Below are positions 36,921 through 46,337 of a stretch of 46,863 nt of DNA, one piece after another; the first letter of the stretch is position 1; every line of letters begins with the position of its first letter. The notes under the pieces are model-generated. The model worked only from the letters and a program-made list of their open reading frames with translations, searched no databases and was not told where the DNA came from. The stretch lies in the IMG/VR virus record IMGVR_UViG_2541047864_000006; one strand, written 5' to 3'. Source of the DNA: a virus. Taxonomy: Duplodnaviria > Heunggongvirae > Uroviricota > Caudoviricetes. A program made the position numbers and the translations under genes.

Positions 36921-40322
<3,402 letters not shown>

Positions 40323-40388: not shown

Positions 40389-40988
40389 ATGCGTAAATTA
40401 TGTGCTGTTATTCTGTCTGCAGTAGTCTGGCTGGTCGCCGCTGGTACGCCAGCGAGTGCAGCAGAGCATCAGTCCACACTAAGCGGCGGGTATCTTCAGT
40501 CCCATACTGATATGCCCGGCAACGATGACCTGAAGGGCATTAACGTGAAATACCGTTATGAATTTACGGACACGCTGGGGCTGGTGACGTCATTCAGCTA
40601 TGCAGGAGACAAGAATCGCCAGATTACCCGTTACAGCGATACCCGCTGGCATGAAGATTCAGTGCGTAACCGCTGGTTCAGCGTGATGGCGGGGCCGTCT
40701 GTACGCGTGAATGAATGGTTCAGTGCTTATGCGATGACGGGTGTGGCTTACAGCCGTGTTTCGACGTTCTCCGGGGATTATCTCCGCGTAACTGACAACA
40801 AGGGGAAAACGCACGATGTGCTGACCGGAAGTGATGGCGGTCGCCACAGCAACACGTCTCTGGCGTGGGGGGCTGGCGTGCAGTTTAACCCGACCGAATC
40901 CGTGGCCATTGACCTTGCTTATGAAGGTTCCGGCAGTGGCGACTGGCGCACTGACGGTTTCATCGTGGGTGTCGGTTATAAATTCTGA
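40389..40988 (+). CDS. lom: Lom outer-membrane protein (Ail/Lom family beta-barrel)
   Basis: 199 aa with signal peptide; Ail/Lom-like sequence; lambda lom position. Confidence 0.85.
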
Positions 40989-41042: not shown

Positions 41043-41052
41043 TGGAGTGGAT

Positions 41053-43764
41053 ATGGCAGCAGTAAAAATCTCAGGTGTGCTGAAAGATGGTGCGGGAAAA
41101 CCAATACAGAACTGCACTATTCAACTGAAGGCAAAGCGTAACAGCACCACGGTACTGGTGAACACGGTGGCCTCTGAAAATCCGGATGAAGCCGGGCGTT
41201 ACAGCATGGACGTTGAGTATGGCCAGTACAGCGTTATCCTGCTGGTTGAAGGTTTTCCGCCTTCACATGCCGGAACCATTACCGTCTATGAAGGTTCCAG
41301 ACCAGGTACGCTGAATGATTTTCTCGGTGCCATGACGGAAGATGATGTCATGCCGGAGGCATTGCGTCGTTTTGAGGAAATGGTGGAAGAAGCGGCACGC
41401 AACGCTGAAGCCGCCTCTCAGAGCGCAGCGGCGGCAAAGAAATCCGAAACTGCAGCGGCATCATCGAAGAACGCGGCGAAAACCTCAGAAACGAATGCAG
41501 CTAACAGCGCACAGGCGGCAGCGGCCTCGCAGACTGCATCGGCAAACTCCGCAACAGCAGCTAAAAAATCAGAAACCAACGCGAAAAATAGCGAGACAGC
41601 CGCAAAGACGAGCGAAACCAACGCAAAGTCCAGCCAGACGGCAGCGAAGACCAGCGAAACGAATGCCAAAACCAGTGAAACTGCAGCAAAAAACAGCCAG
41701 GTTGCAGCAGCCCAAAGCGAGAGCGCGGCAGCCGGTTCTGCGACTTCAGCAGCTGGATCAGCAACTGCTGCGGCTAACAGCCAGAAAGCTGCGAAGACGA
41801 GTGAAACTAACGCAAAGTCCAGCCAGACGGCAGCGAAGACCAGCGAAACGAATGCCAAAGCCAGTGAAACTGCAGCAAAAAACAGCCAGGTTGCAGCAGC
41901 CCAAAGCGAGAGCGCGGCAGCCGGTTCTGCGACTTCAGCAGCTGGATCAGCAACTGCTGCGGCTAACAGCCAGAAAGCTGCGAAGACGAGTGAAACCAAC
42001 GCAAAGTCCAGCCAGACGGCAGCGAAGACCAGCGAAACGAATGCCAAAACCAGTGAAACTGCAGCAAAAAACAGCCAGGTTGCAGCAGCCCAAAGCGAGA
42101 GCGCGGCAGCCGGTTCTGCGACTTCAGCAGCTGGATCAGCAACTAACGCAAAGTCCAGCCAGACGGCAGCGAAGACCAGCGAAACGAATGCCAAAGCCAG
42201 TGAAACTGCGGCGAAAAGCAGTCAGGATGCAGCGGCCCAAAGCGAGAGTGCCGCAGCCAGTTCTGCAAGCGCGGCGGCTGCTTCTGCTACTGCATCAGCT
42301 AACAGTCAAAAAGCAGCAAAAACCAGTGAAACCAACGCAAAGGTGAGCGAAACAGCGGCTGCGAGCTCAGCGAAAGCATCGGCAGCAAGCCAGACGGCAG
42401 CTAAAGCAAGCGAAGATGCAGCCAGAGAGTACGCAAGCCAGGCTGCGGAGCCGTATAAATATGTCTTACAGCCGCTGCCTGATGTGTGGATACCATTTAA
42501 CGATTCGCTGGATATGATTACGGGCTTTTCGCCATCATATAAAAAAATTGTTATTGGTGACGATGAAATAACGATGCCTGGCGACAAGATTGTTAAGTTT
42601 AAACGTGCATCGAAAGCAACCTATATTAACAAATCTGGTGTGCTGACAGAGGCTGCCATTGACGAGCCACGATTTGAACGTGATGGCCTGCTTATTGAGG
42701 GGCAAAGAACAAACTACATGCTCAATTCGGAAAGCCCTGCCAGTTGGGGGCGATCGTCAAATATGGATGTGCCCGAAACAGGGACGGATAATTTTGGTTT
42801 TACCTATGGAAAGTTTGTCTGCAACGATTCTCTGATTGGGCAAACCTCAGCCATTAATATGGCATCAATTGCTGCAACAAAGTCAGTTGATGTCTCAGGC
42901 GATAATAAACACGTGACAACCTCATGTCGTTTTAAAACAGAACTGCAGGTAAGGTTGCGTATCCGGTTTGATAAATATGACGGTAGCGCAACAACTTTTC
43001 TTGGTGATGCGTATATTGATACACAAACGCTTGAAATTAATATGACAGGCGGTGCTGCCTCAAGAATTACAGCGAGAGTCAGAAAGGACGAAGCTACCGG
43101 ATGGATTTTTGCAGAGGCAACAATTCAGGCAATTGATGGGGAGTTAAAAATAGGCTCTCAGATACAGTATTCTCCTAAGCAGAGCGGGGCAACCGTATCT
43201 GGTGACTATATTTATCTGGCCACCCCACAAGTAGAAGATGGGCCTTGTGTATCATCTTTTATTATATCAGGAGCGACGGCGGCGACCCGCGCAAGCGATA
43301 TAGTTACAGTTCCAATTAAGAATAATCTTTATAATCTTCCTTTTACGGTTCTTTGTGAGGTACATAAGAACTGGTATAAAACGCCAAATGCAGCGCCACG
43401 TGTTTTTGATACCGGCGGTCATCAAACCGGAGCGGCTATTATTCTTGGCTTCGGTCGTTCAACAGATTACGACGGATTTCCTTATTGCGATATTGGAGGA
43501 GCTAACAGACGGGTAAACGAAAACGCATTGCTTGAAAAAATGGTTATGGGGATGCGTGTAAAGTCAGATCAGTCTACGTGCTCAGTAAGTAACGGGCGTA
43601 TATCCAGCCAAACAAAAACCACATGGTCCTATATTCAGAACACCGCAATTATCCGTATTGGAGGCCAAACTACAGCCGGGTTACGTCATTTATTTGGTCA
43701 TGTCAGGAATTTCAGAATATGGCACAAGGCATTGACTGATGCTCAGGTGGGGGAGTCAATCTAA
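41053..43764 (+). CDS. stf: Side tail fibre Stf (lambda-like N-terminus, repetitive shaft, divergent C-terminal domain)
   Basis: ~903 aa from ATG 41053; N-terminal ~130 aa close to lambda Stf by recall; 63-aa tandem shaft repeats; C-terminal ~450 aa differ from lambda and look lectin/LamG-like. Confidence 0.85.
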   Translation: MAAVKISGVLKDGAGKPIQNCTIQLKAKRNSTTVLVNTVASENPDEAGRYSMDVEYGQYSVILLVEGFPPSHAGTITVYEGSRPGTLNDFLGAMTEDDVMPEALRRFEEMVEEAARNAEAASQSAAAAKKSETAAASSKNAAKTSETNAANSAQAAAASQTASANSATAAKKSETNAKNSETAAKTSETNAKSSQTAAKTSETNAKTSETAAKNSQVAAAQSESAAAGSATSAAGSATAAANSQKAAKTSETNAKSSQTAAKTSETNAKASETAAKNSQVAAAQSESAAAGSATSAAGSATAAANSQKAAKTSETNAKSSQTAAKTSETNAKTSETAAKNSQVAAAQSESAAAGSATSAAGSATNAKSSQTAAKTSETNAKASETAAKSSQDAAAQSESAAASSASAAAASATASANSQKAAKTSETNAKVSETAAASSAKASAASQTAAKASEDAAREYASQAAEPYKYVLQPLPDVWIPFNDSLDMITGFSPSYKKIVIGDDEITMPGDKIVKFKRASKATYINKSGVLTEAAIDEPRFERDGLLIEGQRTNYMLNSESPASWGRSSNMDVPETGTDNFGFTYGKFVCNDSLIGQTSAINMASIAATKSVDVSGDNKHVTTSCRFKTELQVRLRIRFDKYDGSATTFLGDAYIDTQTLEINMTGGAASRITARVRKDEATGWIFAEATIQAIDGELKIGSQIQYSPKQSGATVSGDYIYLATPQVEDGPCVSSFIISGATAATRASDIVTVPIKNNLYNLPFTVLCEVHKNWYKTPNAAPRVFDTGGHQTGAAIILGFGRSTDYDGFPYCDIGGANRRVNENALLEKMVMGMRVKSDQSTCSVSNGRISSQTKTTWSYIQNTAIIRIGGQTTAGLRHLFGHVRNFRIWHKALTDAQVGESI
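41599..42190. repeat. Tandem 189-bp repeat (~3.2 copies) within stf
   Basis: Repeat starts at 41599, 41788, 41977 (period 189); last copy carries a 42-bp deletion. Confidence 0.7.
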
Positions 43765-44045
43765 TGAAAGATTTAACACTCAAATTTCCCGACAGGGCCG
43801 ACTTTTCGGCCTTTATGGAGAGCATTGGCTATTATGATGACGAGTTGATGCAGGATGATATTCTTATTGACGTGATAGGTAACGTGTACAAAGAAACCGG
43901 AGAACTGACTGAAGATGGCGAACCGGTATGTGTTAAGGAAGACGGATATTTTGTAAACGTGCGCATCATTAATGATTCGCAAATATCGTCATTATTCGAT
44001 GAATACGTGGTTGCTGTTGAGCATCAACTTCGTGGCTGGATGTGA
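43764..44045 (+). CDS. Hypothetical acidic small protein (possible fibre chaperone/assembly factor)
   Basis: 93 aa, TAATG coupling to stf stop, GGGGGAG SD; lower GC than the upstream structural genes. Confidence 0.5.
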   Translation: MKDLTLKFPDRADFSAFMESIGYYDDELMQDDILIDVIGNVYKETGELTEDGEPVCVKEDGYFVNVRIINDSQISSLFDEYVVAVEHQLRGWM

Positions 44046-44054
44046 GGAAGAAAA

Positions 44055-45095
44055 ATGGCTACATCGACAGTAATTCCTGATGACATCAAAACGCTAAAAT
44101 CCGACGTTAGCAAATTAAAAAACGATCAAGGAAGCTACGCAACAAAATTATATGTAGACAGCAAAGATGAAATCGTTGGTGACTGGTCTGCTTCATGGTA
44201 TCAGCAGGTATTGCCAACTAGCGGAGCTATATTTGGGAGAAAACTCCGCTCAACTCACAGGACGGCAGGTGTTGAGGATGCGTATTGCGAACTATACCTC
44301 AAAAAATGGATAGACAGTCCAGGTAACGCAATGGCGCGCCTTAACCTGAACGATAACGGGACAAACATTTGCTGGGACTTTACCAACCTTTATGGCGGTA
44401 CGATGATTTTTCCCGGTGACAGCGGATACCTCAAAATGGGTAACTGCCTTATGTCATACAGCAAGCGTGGAAGTAACGCGCTTATTAAATTTGATTACAC
44501 CGACACATTACAGATCAAATATGCCAATCATGGGTCAACCATGACATTAAACACACAGGGAACCGCTTATGCTGGTGTTACTGCTCAATTGTGGGGCAAC
44601 TCCAGCCGTCCTGTTGTTTATGAAGTCGGTGTTGATGGTGGCGCTTATATGTTCTATGCGCAAAAAAATACCGATAACACCTATATGTTAAGCGTTAATG
44701 GTGCATGTCATGCCACCGCATTTAACCAGCATTCCGACCGGGATCTGAAAGACAACATTCAGGTGATCGATAATGCAACCGACCGCATCCGTAAAATGAA
44801 CGGCTATACATACACGCTTAAAGAAAACGGTATGCCCTATGCTGGTGTCATTGCACAGGAAGCTCTGGAAGCAATCCCAGAAGTTGTAGGTTCCGCAATG
44901 AAATATCAGGACGGTGCAAGCGGATCGGAAGGTGAAGAAGGTGAACGTTATTACACAGTAGATTATTCTGGTGTTACTGGCTTGCTTGTTCAGGTAGCCA
45001 GAGAGTCAGACGACAGAATAACAGCACTGGAAGAAGAAAACGCAGAATTAAGACAAAGATTATCTGCAATTGAGGCGGCGCTTGCGTCTAAATAA
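44055..45095 (+). CDS. Second tail-fibre-like protein with C-terminal intramolecular chaperone (peptidase S74-like) domain
   Basis: 346 aa; C-terminal DRDLKDNIQVIDNA...YTVDYSGVTGLLVQ...LEEENAELRQRL typical of self-cleaving fibre chaperone domains; GAGGAAG SD. Confidence 0.65.
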   Translation: MATSTVIPDDIKTLKSDVSKLKNDQGSYATKLYVDSKDEIVGDWSASWYQQVLPTSGAIFGRKLRSTHRTAGVEDAYCELYLKKWIDSPGNAMARLNLNDNGTNICWDFTNLYGGTMIFPGDSGYLKMGNCLMSYSKRGSNALIKFDYTDTLQIKYANHGSTMTLNTQGTAYAGVTAQLWGNSSRPVVYEVGVDGGAYMFYAQKNTDNTYMLSVNGACHATAFNQHSDRDLKDNIQVIDNATDRIRKMNGYTYTLKENGMPYAGVIAQEALEAIPEVVGSAMKYQDGASGSEGEEGERYYTVDYSGVTGLLVQVARESDDRITALEEENAELRQRLSAIEAALASK

Positions 45096-45099
45096 TATC

Positions 45100-45124
45100 A
45101 AGGGGCCGAGCGCCCCGTTTTATT
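45100..45124 (+). terminator. Putative rho-independent terminator
   Basis: Stem GGGGC/GCCCC, loop CGAGC, followed by GTTTTATT. Confidence 0.5.
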
Positions 45125-45131
45125 GGGTAGG

Positions 45132-45431
45132 ATGAAAATGGATATAACACCTTTCCTTCATGCGCTTTGTGCTGTGGCTGCGCAGCTACTGGTTGGTCTT
45201 TTTACCGGGAACTGGGCTTACGGGGCGATAGCCGGTTGTACGTTCTTCATTGCGCGTGAACACACCCAGGCGGAATATCGCTGGATTGAAATGTTTGGGC
45301 ATGGCAAGAGGATTAACATGCCGTGGTGGGGCGGTTTTGATCCGCGCGTGTGGGATGTGGCAAGCCTGATGGATTTTGCTGTGCCGGTGGTGGCGTGTCT
45401 GCTGGTCTGGCTGTTGGTTAATCGTGGGTGA
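45132..45431 (+). CDS. Small inner-membrane protein (candidate superinfection-exclusion/receptor-masking factor)
   Basis: ~99 aa with at least two predicted TM helices; located after fibre genes. Confidence 0.45.
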   Translation: MKMDITPFLHALCAVAAQLLVGLFTGNWAYGAIAGCTFFIAREHTQAEYRWIEMFGHGKRINMPWWGGFDPRVWDVASLMDFAVPVVACLLVWLLVNRG

Positions 45432-45453
45432 AAAAAGGTGAGCTGTATATGCA

Positions 45454-45561
45454 ATGGAGGAAGAAACCCCGTTGCTGGAAGCCTGGAAAAAGTATCGGGT
45501 GTTGCTGAACCGTGTTGATACGTCAACTGCACAGGATATTGAATGGCCAGCACTGCCGTAG
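45454..45561 (+). pseudogene. Remnant encoding only the conserved C-terminal ~35 aa of a Tfa tail-fibre assembly protein
   Basis: Translates to [35 protein letters not shown], which I recall as the conserved Tfa C-terminus; in-frame stop immediately upstream. Confidence 0.6.
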
Positions 45562-45658
45562 GGTAAAACATATAAATTCTATAATTAGATGTATCTTTCC
45601 ATTTACGGCAAGGAAGGGGGCTTGGAAGACGTAAAGCATCTCACACCGAGATTATTTT

Positions 45659-46249
45659 TTATATGTCAGGTGTCTGAAGTTTTGCTTTGGCTCTTAAAAT
45701 GGTTTGCCGCGAGGTTTTGAATTCCCGGGCAATGGCACTTATACTTACACCTGACTTAATTCGTTCGAATACCACCTGTTTCTGTTCTTCATTTAACACA
45801 GGTGGTCGACCAAAACGTTTCCCTGCGCCCCGGGCTCTTACTATCCCGGAATGAGTGCGTTCAAGTAAAAGGTCTCGTTCAAATTCAGCGACTGCTGAAA
45901 TTACTTGCATCATCATTTTTCCTGTTGGACTGGTCAGGTCAATGCCCCCCAATGCTAAGCAATGCACTCTGATACCTGTTTCGGTCAGTTGTTCCACTGT
46001 TTTCCTGATATCCATTGCATTACAACCAAGGCGATCCAGTTTTGTCACAATCAATTGATCACCACATTTCAGGCGAGCAAGCAACCGGTTAAAACCAGGA
46101 CGCTCACTGGTTGCTGCTGAGCCGCTAATGTGTTCTTCGATTATTTGCTGAGGTTTGATTTTAAAGCCTGCACTTTCGATTTCCCGGCGTTGATTTTCGG
46201 TGGTCTGATCCAGAGTTGATATCCGACAGTAAGCAAAAATTCGAGACAT
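45659..46249 (-). CDS. pin: Serine DNA invertase (Pin/Gin/Cin/Hin family)
   Basis: 196 aa; N-terminal YCRISTLDQ catalytic-serine motif and C-terminal HTH; matches E. coli prophage Pin invertases by recall. Confidence 0.95.
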
Positions 46250-46337
46250 AGTGAGACTCTATACGAAATTGGTGTACATATCATAATGCATATCCAAAAA
46301 TTATTTCGCTTATTATTGCACATATTTGTATGTATAC

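What the first reader, a model, noticed from the sequence alone, without database searches (positions are those of the whole stretch)
45132..45431. Small membrane protein after the fibre genes: candidate superinfection-exclusion factor
Genes directly downstream of tail fibre loci often encode membrane or lipoproteins that mask or inactivate the phage's own receptor (for example Cor or Llp). This ~99-aa protein has two predicted TM helices and follows a terminator, so it may be expressed from the lysogen.
Basis: inference. Interest (0 to 1): 0.45.

Follow-up and report, generated by a model that had tools for sequence, protein, structure and literature searches.

The report
Conserved small prophage inner-membrane protein, function unknown
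The ORF is a real, strongly conserved 97-residue membrane-protein gene at the end of the tail-fibre genes of an E. coli lambda-like prophage. It belongs to a widespread family nobody has characterised, it is not a Cor/Llp-type receptor-masking lipoprotein, and whether it blocks superinfection remains untested.

Summary
The ORF is real, but the likely start is 45138 (97 aa), not 45132. It is the last gene after J, lom, stf, a 93-aa ORF and a 346-aa S74-type fibre, in a lambdoid prophage next to prfC. It matches phrog_1443 (E 1e-58, unknown function) and no Pfam, NCBIfam or PADLOC family.

It is found in 1907 of 5426 complete E. coli genomes (median 2 copies, up to 7). It also occurs in phage 21, P22-like and SSU5-like phages, Comamonas and Acidovorax prophages, virulent Aeromonas phages, and non-phage chromosomal sites in Aeromonas, Leclercia and Silvania. 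dN/dS is 0.13-0.25. GC is 54% against 42-44% in the neighbouring genes.

AlphaFold2 (pLDDT 94) predicts three transmembrane helices. Between TM2 and TM3 lies a nearly invariant 34-residue basic and aromatic loop (AREHTQAEYRWI..FG.GKR.NMPWWGGFD.R.W), probably cytoplasmic.

There is no signal peptide or lipobox and no detectable homology to Cor, SieA or gp15. The preceding terminator belongs to the inserted fibre gene. In other layouts the gene abuts or overlaps the upstream late gene, and no promoter was detected.

My best guess, at about 0.3, is an autonomous inner-membrane moron acting at the genome-entry step, like SieA, Imm or gp15 in principle. Receptor masking is unlikely.

The parts
45138..45431 (+). 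Coding sequence of the 97-aa small membrane protein (family phrog_1443, UniRef name 'Ybl63', RefSeq WP_001306187.1). The in-frame ATG at 45132 would add 2 residues.
45129..45132 (+). Shine-Dalgarno-like AGGA, 5 nt upstream of the ATG at 45138
   Evidence: read directly from the sequence; the start agrees with RefSeq and with homologue N-termini
45147..45206 (+). Predicted TM helix 1 (aa 4-23), carrying the conserved H8, Q16 and G20xxxG24
45213..45254 (+). Predicted TM helix 2, hydrophobic part (aa 26-39), with invariant G29. The helix continues to aa 53.
45255..45356 (+). Nearly invariant polar and aromatic loop (aa 40-73): REHTQAEYRWIEMFGHGKRINMPWWGGFDPRVWD. It carries 5.4 Lys+Arg on average and is predicted cytoplasmic by the positive-inside rule.
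45357..45425 (+). Predicted TM helix 3 (aa 74-96), carrying the conserved D79 and P83
45102..45124 (+). Terminator-like hairpin (5 G-C pairs, 5-nt loop) plus T-tract at the end of the S74 fibre gene. It travels with the target as a cassette into the P22-like phage 611R6 and the plasmid prophage of strain Esc18.
44055..45095 (+). 346-aa tail-fibre protein with a Peptidase_S74 intramolecular chaperone domain. It is an insertion relative to the phage 21 layout and forms the upstream boundary of the target.
43764..44045 (+). 93-aa ORF (phrog_1361, unknown function). It is present between stf and the target in all 10 E. coli-type loci examined, directly adjacent to the target or separated from it by an inserted fibre gene. 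It may be a fibre chaperone; this was not tested.
45454..45561 (+). C-terminal 35-aa fragment of a tail-fibre assembly protein (pseudogene). It marks the recombination joint just downstream of the target.

Best explanation
The gene is a horizontally mobile, compositionally foreign cargo gene (a moron) at the 3' end of the tail-fibre module.

**Predicted, not shown.** It encodes a 97-aa protein that inserts into the cytoplasmic membrane as an up-down-up three-helix bundle. The N-terminus would be inside and the C-terminus outside.

**The likely functional part.** This is a nearly invariant 34-residue loop with flanking polar residues (H8, R40-E41, Q44-A45-E46, R58, P62-W63-W64, W72, D79, P83). 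I infer that it sits at the cytoplasmic face of the membrane.

**Inferred mode of action.** The protein acts alone, since no partner gene is conserved. It probably binds a conserved inner-membrane component or lipid.

**Proposed role (speculative).** My best guess is that this makes the inner membrane non-permissive for incoming phage genomes. That would be exclusion at the DNA-entry step, as with P22 SieA, T4 Imm or HK97 gp15, and not masking of an outer-membrane receptor. It is not homologous to any of those proteins.
For: - **Real, selected gene.** phrog_1443 E 1e-58; 585 homologues; 433 clusters at 50% identity; dN/dS 0.13-0.25.
- **Moron-like composition and mobility.** GC is 54.4% against 41.8-44.4% in the 93-aa ORF, the S74 fibre and the stf 3' end. 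The cassette made of the last ~170 nt of the fibre gene, the terminator and the target is nearly identical in P22-like phage 611R6. There it lies between an O-antigen acetylase and int.
- **Recurrent position.** It is the last gene after receptor-binding genes in lambdoid, SSU5-like and P22-like phages and in Comamonas, Acidovorax and Chelativorans prophages.
- **Decay in four virulent Escherichia/Salmonella phage records.** It is reduced to the same partial, unannotated remnant in four such records: Escherichia phages HC6, HC8A and PBM-2 and Salmonella phage ST1UNAM. In HC6, the one examined, the remnant is frameshifted and lies right after an S74-type fibre gene. This suggests it is dispensable for lytic growth there.
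- **Acts alone.** No partner gene is conserved across genera. Stand-alone chromosomal copies sit at conserved loci in Aeromonas, Leclercia and Silvania.
- **Structure and topology.** AF2 pLDDT is 93.7 with helices 4-23, 26-53 and 74-96. Lys+Arg counts are 5.4 in the loop plus 0.2-0.7 in the N-tail, against 0.03 in the turn plus about 0.5 in the C-tail.
- **Precedent.** P22 SieA is an inner-membrane exclusion protein with three predicted TM helices, no signal sequence and a conserved motif predicted to be cytoplasmic (PMC10883804).
Against: - No homology to any known exclusion protein. hhalign probabilities are 0.2% for SieA, 0.4% for Cor and 0.3% for gp15. No PHROG, Pfam or PADLOC exclusion or defence family matches at E <= 1.
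- No promoter-like site lies upstream in four layouts. The gene often overlaps or abuts the upstream late gene, with gaps of -4 to 22 nt. It may therefore be expressed only late in lytic growth, whereas sieA has its own promoter on the opposite strand.
- The polar motif is almost invariant from Alphaproteobacteria to E. coli phages. That looks more like a catalytic or ligand-binding site than like a fast-evolving exclusion protein.
- Chromosomal, non-phage orthologues point to a cellular function.
- Genomes carry up to 7 copies. Two different alleles sit in two prophages of one E. ruysiae contig, so carriers are not protected from acquiring further carriers.
- Topology is uncertain. The phage 21 annotators report TMHMM 2 TM, N-in/C-in. 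Long C-tails, where present, are net basic.
Confidence: 0.3

Rival explanations
1. The protein serves host physiology or envelope chemistry. It could be a minimal membrane-embedded metal-dependent enzyme, or a regulator acting on a lipid-linked or membrane-bound substrate such as undecaprenyl-linked O-antigen intermediates or phospholipids. Phages would have picked it up from bacterial chromosomes. Any effect on phage infection would be indirect.
For: - The invariant residues form a His/Glu/Glu/Asp/Arg constellation (H8, R40, E41, Q44, E46, D79). They are predicted near one membrane face and are conserved across classes of Proteobacteria and in virulent Aeromonas phages.
- Chromosomal copies lie at conserved non-phage loci. 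In Aeromonas it follows pirin in 5 genomes. In Leclercia it lies between an M3 peptidase gene and ABC-transporter genes. In Silvania it lies next to a porin gene. In three uncultured alphaproteobacterial genomes the upstream gene matches NAD-dependent DNA ligase families.
- In phage 611R6 it lies in the conversion region beside an O-antigen acetylase.
Against: - 97 residues with three helices is very small for an enzyme.
- No substrate-related genes are consistently linked.
Confidence: 0.25
2. The protein has a late lytic-cycle function at the membrane. It would be made from the late transcript and would modulate lysis timing or holin function (antiholin-like), or otherwise condition the inner membrane before release.
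For: - It runs in the same direction as the late structural genes and is tightly packed with them or overlaps them.
- No promoter of its own was detected.
- In Acidovorax prophage L037 it lies immediately upstream of a 67-aa ORF that looks like a holin by its features (untested), followed by an endolysin (PHROG match) and ORFs resembling Rz/Rz1 spanins (read from the ORF list).
- In Comamonas L030, and probably L009, it lies upstream of a lysis-type cassette. L030 has a PHROG-matched Rz-like spanin. L009 shares the phrog_3108 gene, and its spanin is inferred from clustering only.
- In EC.W1-9 it lies one gene upstream of holin, endolysin and Rz.
Against: - In lambdoid E. coli phages it is about 25 kb from S-R-Rz.
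- It lacks the charged C-terminal tail typical of holins, and no holin or antiholin PHROG or Pfam family matches.
- Chromosomal non-phage orthologues exist.
- It is a pseudogene in the virulent siphovirus HC6.
Confidence: 0.18
3. A Cor/Llp-like factor masks or inactivates the phage's own outer-membrane receptor and so blocks adsorption.
For: Position only. cor lies after the tail-tip genes in phi80, and the target lies after the fibre genes here and in many phages.
Against: - No signal peptide or lipobox, whereas phi80 Cor has LTGC.
- By prediction, only a 2-residue turn and a tail of about 2-4 residues could face the periplasm.
- hhalign probability to Cor is 0.4%.
- Alleles 80-95% identical follow unrelated receptor-binding proteins: two Stf types, an S74 fibre and two different tailspikes.
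- Several copies coexist in one genome.
Confidence: 0.03
4. The protein is an accessory factor for tail-fibre assembly, acting together with the 93-aa ORF in place of Tfa.
For: The 93-aa ORF lies between stf and the target in all 10 E. coli-type loci examined. The pair occupies the place of tfa, and only a 35-aa tfa fragment remains here.
Against: - It is a membrane protein with no known precedent in fibre assembly.
- It occurs without the 93-aa ORF behind tailspikes, in early or unrelated regions of Aeromonas phages, and in non-phage chromosomal loci.
Confidence: 0.04

Closest known systems
phrog_1443 (PHROGs v4, 'unknown function'); RefSeq WP_001306187.1 / WP_000355360.1 'hypothetical protein'; UniRef 'Ybl63'; phage 21 gene CPT_21_24 'putative membrane protein'
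   Same: Full-length profile match (E 1e-58, residues 3-98 of the 99-aa translation on profile positions 1-96 of 97). It is 95% identical to the phage 21 protein and has the same position after stf and the 92-aa ORF.
   Different: Nothing of substance differs. In this window a 346-aa S74 fibre gene and its terminator are inserted between the 93-aa ORF and the target.
P22 SieA (inner-membrane superinfection-exclusion protein that blocks DNA injection)
   Same: Both are small prophage inner-membrane proteins with three predicted TM helices, no signal sequence and a conserved motif predicted on the cytoplasmic side (PMC10883804).
   Different: - No homology (hhalign probability 0.2%).
- SieA is 162-164 aa, against 97 aa here.
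- sieA has its own promoter and lies on the strand opposite the late genes. The target runs with the late genes and no promoter was detected.
- Exclusion activity has not been tested for the target.
HK97 gp15 (moron inside the tail operon; predicted inner-membrane exclusion protein)
   Same: Both are small membrane-protein morons embedded in, and running with, the late structural operon, with a putative terminator alongside (PMC10883804).
   Different: gp15 is 62 aa with one N-terminal hydrophobic helix. No homology (hhalign probability 0.3%).
Cor (phi80, N15, T1, HK022) and Llp (T5): lipoproteins that inactivate FhuA
   Same: Both are small genes placed next to receptor-binding or tail-fibre genes.
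   Different: Cor has a signal peptide and the lipobox LTGC. The target has neither. No homology. The target shows no association with one receptor-binding protein type. That Llp is a lipoprotein comes from established knowledge; its sequence was not examined here.
T4 Imm (small inner-membrane protein that blocks DNA injection)
   Same: Small size and inner-membrane location. A family that also occurs in virulent phages.
   Different: No PHROG or Pfam match to any Imm family at E <= 1. No direct pairwise comparison was run.

Membership tests
phrog_1443 / 'Ybl63' small membrane protein family | Full-length profile HMM match | tested here: met
   E 1e-58, residues 3-98 on profile positions 1-96 of 97. 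585 homologues of 90-130 aa.
phrog_1443 / 'Ybl63' small membrane protein family | Conserved motif H8 ... R40-E41-x-x-Q44-A45-E46 ... R58 ... P62-W-W ... W72 ... D79 ... P83 | tested here: met
   All of these residues are present in the window protein. They are invariant or at least 90% conserved in alignments A1, A2 and A5.
Cor / Llp-type receptor-masking lipoproteins | N-terminal signal peptide with a lipobox cysteine | tested here: not met
   The N-terminus MDITPFLHALC has no basic N-region, and HALC does not fit L-[AS]-[GA]-C. Cys11 is not conserved. phi80 Cor has MRKLIICMAGAVMLTGC.
Cor / Llp-type receptor-masking lipoproteins | Sequence or profile homology to Cor or Llp | tested here: not met
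   hhalign of the family profile against phi80 Cor gives probability 0.4%. No such PHROG or Pfam hit at E <= 1.
Cor / Llp-type receptor-masking lipoproteins | Linkage to one receptor-binding protein or receptor type (FhuA users) | tested here: not met
   Alleles 80-95% identical follow two Stf types, an S74 fibre and two unrelated tailspikes.
Cor / Llp-type receptor-masking lipoproteins | Blocks adsorption or receptor function | not testable with these tools
   Needs adsorption and plating assays.
Inner-membrane injection-blocking exclusion proteins (SieA, Imm, gp15), a functional class and not a homology family | Integral inner-membrane protein without a cleavable export signal | tested here: met
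   By prediction only. Three helices with pLDDT 93.7, hydrophobic segments, and the conserved H8 and Q16 inside the first helix argue against a cleaved signal peptide.
Inner-membrane injection-blocking exclusion proteins (SieA, Imm, gp15) | Homology to a known member | tested here: not met
   hhalign probabilities are 0.2% for SieA and 0.3% for gp15. No PHROG or Pfam hit.
Inner-membrane injection-blocking exclusion proteins (SieA, Imm, gp15) | Expression in the lysogen from its own promoter | tested here: inconclusive
   No site of 9/12 or better lies upstream in four layouts. By eye there is only an 8/12 match, TTGAGG-17-TAATAT at 45070-45098, overlapping the fibre stop codon. A consensus scan cannot exclude a weak or non-sigma-70 promoter.
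Inner-membrane injection-blocking exclusion proteins (SieA, Imm, gp15) | Blocks DNA entry of superinfecting phage | not testable with these tools
   Needs plating-efficiency, K+ efflux or DNA-entry assays.
Holins / antiholins | Match to a holin family; charged C-terminal cytoplasmic tail; gene adjacent to an endolysin gene | tested here: not met
   No holin PHROG or Pfam hit. The C-tail is only NRG. There is no endolysin gene nearby in this window. Where a lysis cassette follows (L037), a separate 67-aa ORF with holin-like features (no family match tested) lies between the target and the endolysin.
Known anti-phage defence systems (PADLOC-DB v2) | Profile match to a defence protein | tested here: not met
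   0 families at E <= 1.

The most novel reading that the evidence does not exclude
The 97-aa protein founds a new, non-homologous family of inner-membrane exclusion or defence factors. Its invariant cytoplasm-facing His/Glu/Asp/Arg and Trp-rich loop would bind, or enzymatically modify, a universally conserved inner-membrane component that many phages need for genome entry. That would explain why the same motif is kept from alphaproteobacterial chromosomes to E. coli, Comamonas and Aeromonas phages.
Probability: 0.2. Interest if true: 0.65.

Novelty: new variant of a known kind. Interest (0 to 1): 0.38.

Why it matters
About one in three complete E. coli genomes carries this gene, often in several prophages at once, yet it is annotated only as 'hypothetical'. 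The polar motif is strikingly invariant, and the gene recurs at the end of receptor-binding modules in very different phages. Both observations suggest a specific, selectable activity at the inner membrane.

If that activity is exclusion or defence, it would influence prophage competition and the host range of therapeutic phages in a large fraction of clinical E. coli. If it is enzymatic, it would be among the smallest membrane enzymes known. Phage 21 (gene 24) and the common sitABCD-carrying UPEC prophage offer easy genetic systems to test it.

Tried and rejected
- **Family searches.** Pfam, NCBIfam and PADLOC scans gave no family. The best Pfam hit was PhoR at E 0.24.
- **Literature.** Searches for accessions, FIG/PHROG ids, 'ybl63' and 'c1596' found nothing relevant. 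The infant-gut coliphage paper that sequenced many carriers, as found by term search, discusses sitABCD, bor, sie and blc as morons, and the passages retrieved do not mention this gene. The svsR sRNA paper is unrelated.
- **Homology to known exclusion proteins.** hhalign against P22 SieA, phi80 Cor and HK97 gp15 gave probabilities below 1%.
- **Invertible segment.** I considered that the gene lies in a Pin-invertible segment. Only chance-level inverted repeats were found, the best being 18 nt at 89%. All genes in the candidate segment face the same way, so I rejected this.
- **Holin.** I considered that the protein is the holin of the betaproteobacterial prophages. A separate ORF with holin-like features lies downstream of it, so I rejected this.
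- **Cleaved signal peptide.** The phage 21 record notes a SignalP call for the N-terminal 29 aa. The conserved H8, Q16 and G20xxxG24 lie inside that stretch, so this is unlikely.
- **Neighbour annotation.** Scanning 41 upstream neighbours at once gave only a diffuse summary. Per-locus calls were more useful.

Full report
**Locus.** The window is a lambda-like prophage of E. coli. The stretch 43700-46300 is 100% identical to strain K56-43-un. There the prophage ends with a pin-like invertase, ydfK, a YnaM/YnfT-family gene and a dinI-like gene, next to prfC. The gene order around the finding is:
- J (36924-40322)
- lom (40389-40988)
- stf (41047-43764)
- a 93-aa ORF (43764-44045, phrog_1361, unknown function)
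- a 346-aa fibre protein with a Peptidase_S74 chaperone domain (44055-45095)
- a hairpin and T-tract (45102-45124)
- the target ORF
- a 35-aa C-terminal fragment of a tail-fibre assembly protein (45454-45561, pseudogene)
- the invertase on the other strand (45659-46249)

**The observation.** The ORF exists and is a real gene.
- The likely start is the ATG at 45138, giving 97 aa. An AGGA lies 5 nt upstream, RefSeq uses this start (WP_001306187.1), and homologues begin MD(I/L)(T/S)P.
- It matches phrog_1443 end to end (E 1e-58).
- It has 585 homologues in the 5.8-billion-protein collection and 433 clusters among the 50%-identity representatives. All are 90-130 aa and stand alone.
- Pairwise dN/dS against E. 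coli-phage and Leclercia homologues is 0.13-0.25.
It has only five pairs, and neither its folding energy nor the number of such sites exceeds shuffled controls.

**Structure and topology.** AlphaFold2 on a 38-sequence alignment gives a confident model (pLDDT 93.7) with helices 4-23, 26-53 and 74-96.
The turn is flanked by conserved small-residue motifs, G20xxxG24 and the invariant G29.
- Hydrophobic segments agree with this picture.
- Residues 40-73 form a polar and aromatic loop.
- Across the family the loop carries 5.4-5.5 Lys+Arg. The N-tail carries 0.2-0.7, the turn 0.03 and the C-tail about 0.5-0.7.
- By the positive-inside rule (established knowledge) this gives N-in, loop-in, C-out, with almost nothing exposed to the periplasm.
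- This is an inference. The phage 21 record cites TMHMM with two TM helices and N-in/C-in. The minority of members with long C-tails have net basic tails.

**Conservation.** The loop and a few membrane-embedded polar residues are almost invariant. The pattern is H8, Q16, R40-E41, T43-Q44-A45-E46-Y47-R48-W49, R58, M61-P62-W-W-G-G-F-D68, W72, D79 and P83. The core set survives in the most distant members and in virulent Aeromonas phages. The first and last helices vary much more. This pattern suggests a specific binding or catalytic site at one membrane face.

**Similarity searches.**
- No Pfam, NCBIfam or PADLOC family matches.
- A family profile finds nothing in PDB sequences.
- The only source name is the systematic label 'Ybl63'.
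- No paper mentions the gene.

**Distribution in E. coli.** 1907 of 5426 complete genomes carry the gene, with a median of 2 copies and up to 7. Of the 3924 places found, 57 are on plasmids. The exact arrangement of this window occurs in only 68 genomes.

**Layouts in phages and prophages.**
- stf, a 92-aa ORF, then the target with a 12-nt gap. This is the layout in phage 21, in the 'Lambda_ev' phages from infant gut and in the common sitABCD prophage.
- stf, the 93-aa ORF, a 234-aa ORF, then the target with a 10-nt gap.
- stf, the 93-aa ORF, the S74 fibre, the terminator, then the target. This is the layout here, in E. ruysiae and in an SSU5-like plasmid prophage.
- After the tailspike of P22-like phages. 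In 611R6 the last ~170 nt of the S74 fibre gene, the terminator and the target form a nearly identical cassette. It lies between an O-antigen acetylase and int.
- Outside Escherichia it follows J-like or fibre genes in Comamonas, Pantoea, Chelativorans, Leclercia and Acidovorax prophages. It often overlaps the preceding gene, and in some it lies just upstream of a lysis cassette.
- In the virulent siphovirus HC6 a frameshifted remnant follows an S74-type fibre gene. Three further virulent Escherichia/Salmonella phage records give the same partial, unannotated hit.
- Intact copies occur in an Aeromonas podovirus among small hypothetical genes about 3.5 kb from the left end of the record (probably the early region), inside the structural operon of a P22-like Aeromonas phage, and in jumbo Aeromonas phages.

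**Non-phage copies.** Stand-alone copies lie at conserved chromosomal loci.
- Aeromonas: after pirin, in 5 genomes.
- Leclercia: between an M3 peptidase gene and ABC-transporter genes.
- Silvania: next to a porin gene.
- Three uncultured alphaproteobacterial genomes: the upstream gene matches NAD-dependent DNA ligase families.

No partner gene is conserved across genera.

**Composition.** The target has 54.4% GC. The 93-aa ORF, the S74 fibre gene and the 3' part of stf have 41.8-44.4%. This fits a separately acquired cargo gene.

**Expression.**
- Only about 14 nt separate the T-tract from the start codon.
- No sigma-70-like site of 9/12 or better precedes the gene here, in phage 21, in IdasGreatGrand or in 611R6.
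- The terminator is part of the inserted fibre cassette and is absent from the other layouts.
- By eye there is an 8/12 match, TTGAGG-17 nt-TAATAT, at 45070-45098. Its transcript would start inside the 5' arm of the hairpin. This is only a lead.
- The default expectation is co-transcription with the late operon, because Q-modified RNA polymerase reads through terminators (established knowledge for lambdoid phages).
- Expression in lysogens cannot be decided from sequence.

**Comparison with known exclusion proteins.**
- *Cor and Llp.* phi80 Cor has a signal peptide and the lipobox LTGC. The target has neither, shows no homology (hhalign probability 0.4%), and is not tied to one receptor-binding protein type. 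A receptor-masking mechanism is therefore unlikely; I put it at about 0.03.
- *P22 SieA.* This is the closest functional analogue. It is an inner-membrane protein with three predicted TM helices, no signal sequence and a conserved motif predicted to be cytoplasmic, and it blocks DNA injection (PMC10883804).
- *HK97 gp15 and T4 Imm.* gp15 is a small membrane-protein moron inside the tail operon. Neither SieA nor gp15 is homologous to the target. Imm was covered only by the PHROG and Pfam scans.

**Weighing the explanations.**

For an autonomous inner-membrane exclusion or defence moron:
- the recurrent position at the end of receptor-binding modules
- foreign composition and cassette-like mobility
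- decay in four virulent Escherichia/Salmonella phage records (frameshift confirmed in HC6)
- stand-alone action
- the SieA precedent

Against it:
- tight late-operon packing with no detected promoter
- very deep conservation of a polar motif, which looks like an enzyme or ligand site
- chromosomal orthologues
- polylysogeny, with up to 7 copies per genome and two different alleles in two prophages on one E. ruysiae contig

I commit to the exclusion-at-entry model at about 0.3. The rivals are:
- a cellular or envelope-chemistry role, about 0.25
- a late lytic or lysis-timing role, about 0.18
- fibre assembly, about 0.04
- Cor-like receptor masking, about 0.03

**Verdict.** This is a genuine, widespread and uncharacterised small inner-membrane protein gene. 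The specific mechanism it proposed is disfavoured, and its general hypothesis remains open and is easy to test in phage 21.

Noticed in passing
window 41590-42144 (inside stf, 41047-43764): A 189-nt (63-aa) tandem repeat, rich in Ala, Ser, Thr and Lys, is present in 2.9 copies at 97% identity. The stf ORF is 905 aa here but 793 aa in the K56-43-un locus, which is identical to the window over 43700-46300. The repeat copy number probably varies between strains.
   Followed up: partly
window 43764-44045 (+): A 93-aa ORF (phrog_1361, unknown function) lies between stf and the target in all 10 E. coli-type loci examined. It occupies the place of tfa. It may be a chaperone for this Stf C-terminus type.
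   Followed up: partly
window 44055-45124 (+): The 346-aa S74-chaperone fibre gene and its terminator are an insertion relative to the phage 21 layout. The last ~170 nt of the gene, the terminator and the target recur almost unchanged in P22-like phage 611R6 and in a plasmid prophage. This suggests recombination at the conserved S74 3' end.
   Followed up: yes
window 45429-45527 (+): A partial Rfam hit to IS009 (RF02111) scores 66 bits, below the gathering score of 117, with E 5e-14. It overlaps the tfa C-terminal pseudogene fragment. It is probably inherited similarity to a cryptic-prophage tfa region and not a functional sRNA.
   Followed up: no
window 45454-46249: A tfa fragment converges on a pin-like invertase (Resolvase plus HTH_7). 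No convincing crossover-site inverted repeats were found; the best is 18 nt at 89%, 42841-42858 against 46140-46157. This looks like a degenerate remnant of an invertible fibre segment, as in Qin, Rac and phi80.
   Followed up: partly
L010, L015, L016, L018, L022 (Aeromonas); L017, L024, L025, L027, L028 (Leclercia); L021, L026, L029 (Silvania): Family members sit at conserved non-prophage chromosomal loci: after pirin in Aeromonas, between an M3 peptidase gene and ABC-transporter genes in Leclercia, and next to a porin gene in Silvania. This implies vertically inherited cellular copies.
   Followed up: partly
L037 5998-7700 (Acidovorax MAG prophage): The target overlaps the stop of a 153-aa coiled-coil ORF that follows the fibre gene. 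It is followed by a 67-aa ORF with holin-like features, an endolysin (PHROG match) that looks SAR-type from its N-terminus, and nested ORFs resembling Rz/Rz1 spanins.
   Followed up: partly
L011 and L012 (one E. ruysiae contig): Two prophages in one genome each carry the gene, at 97% and 95% identity to the query. They have different stf and 93-aa ORF types, and one carries sitABCD.
   Followed up: partly
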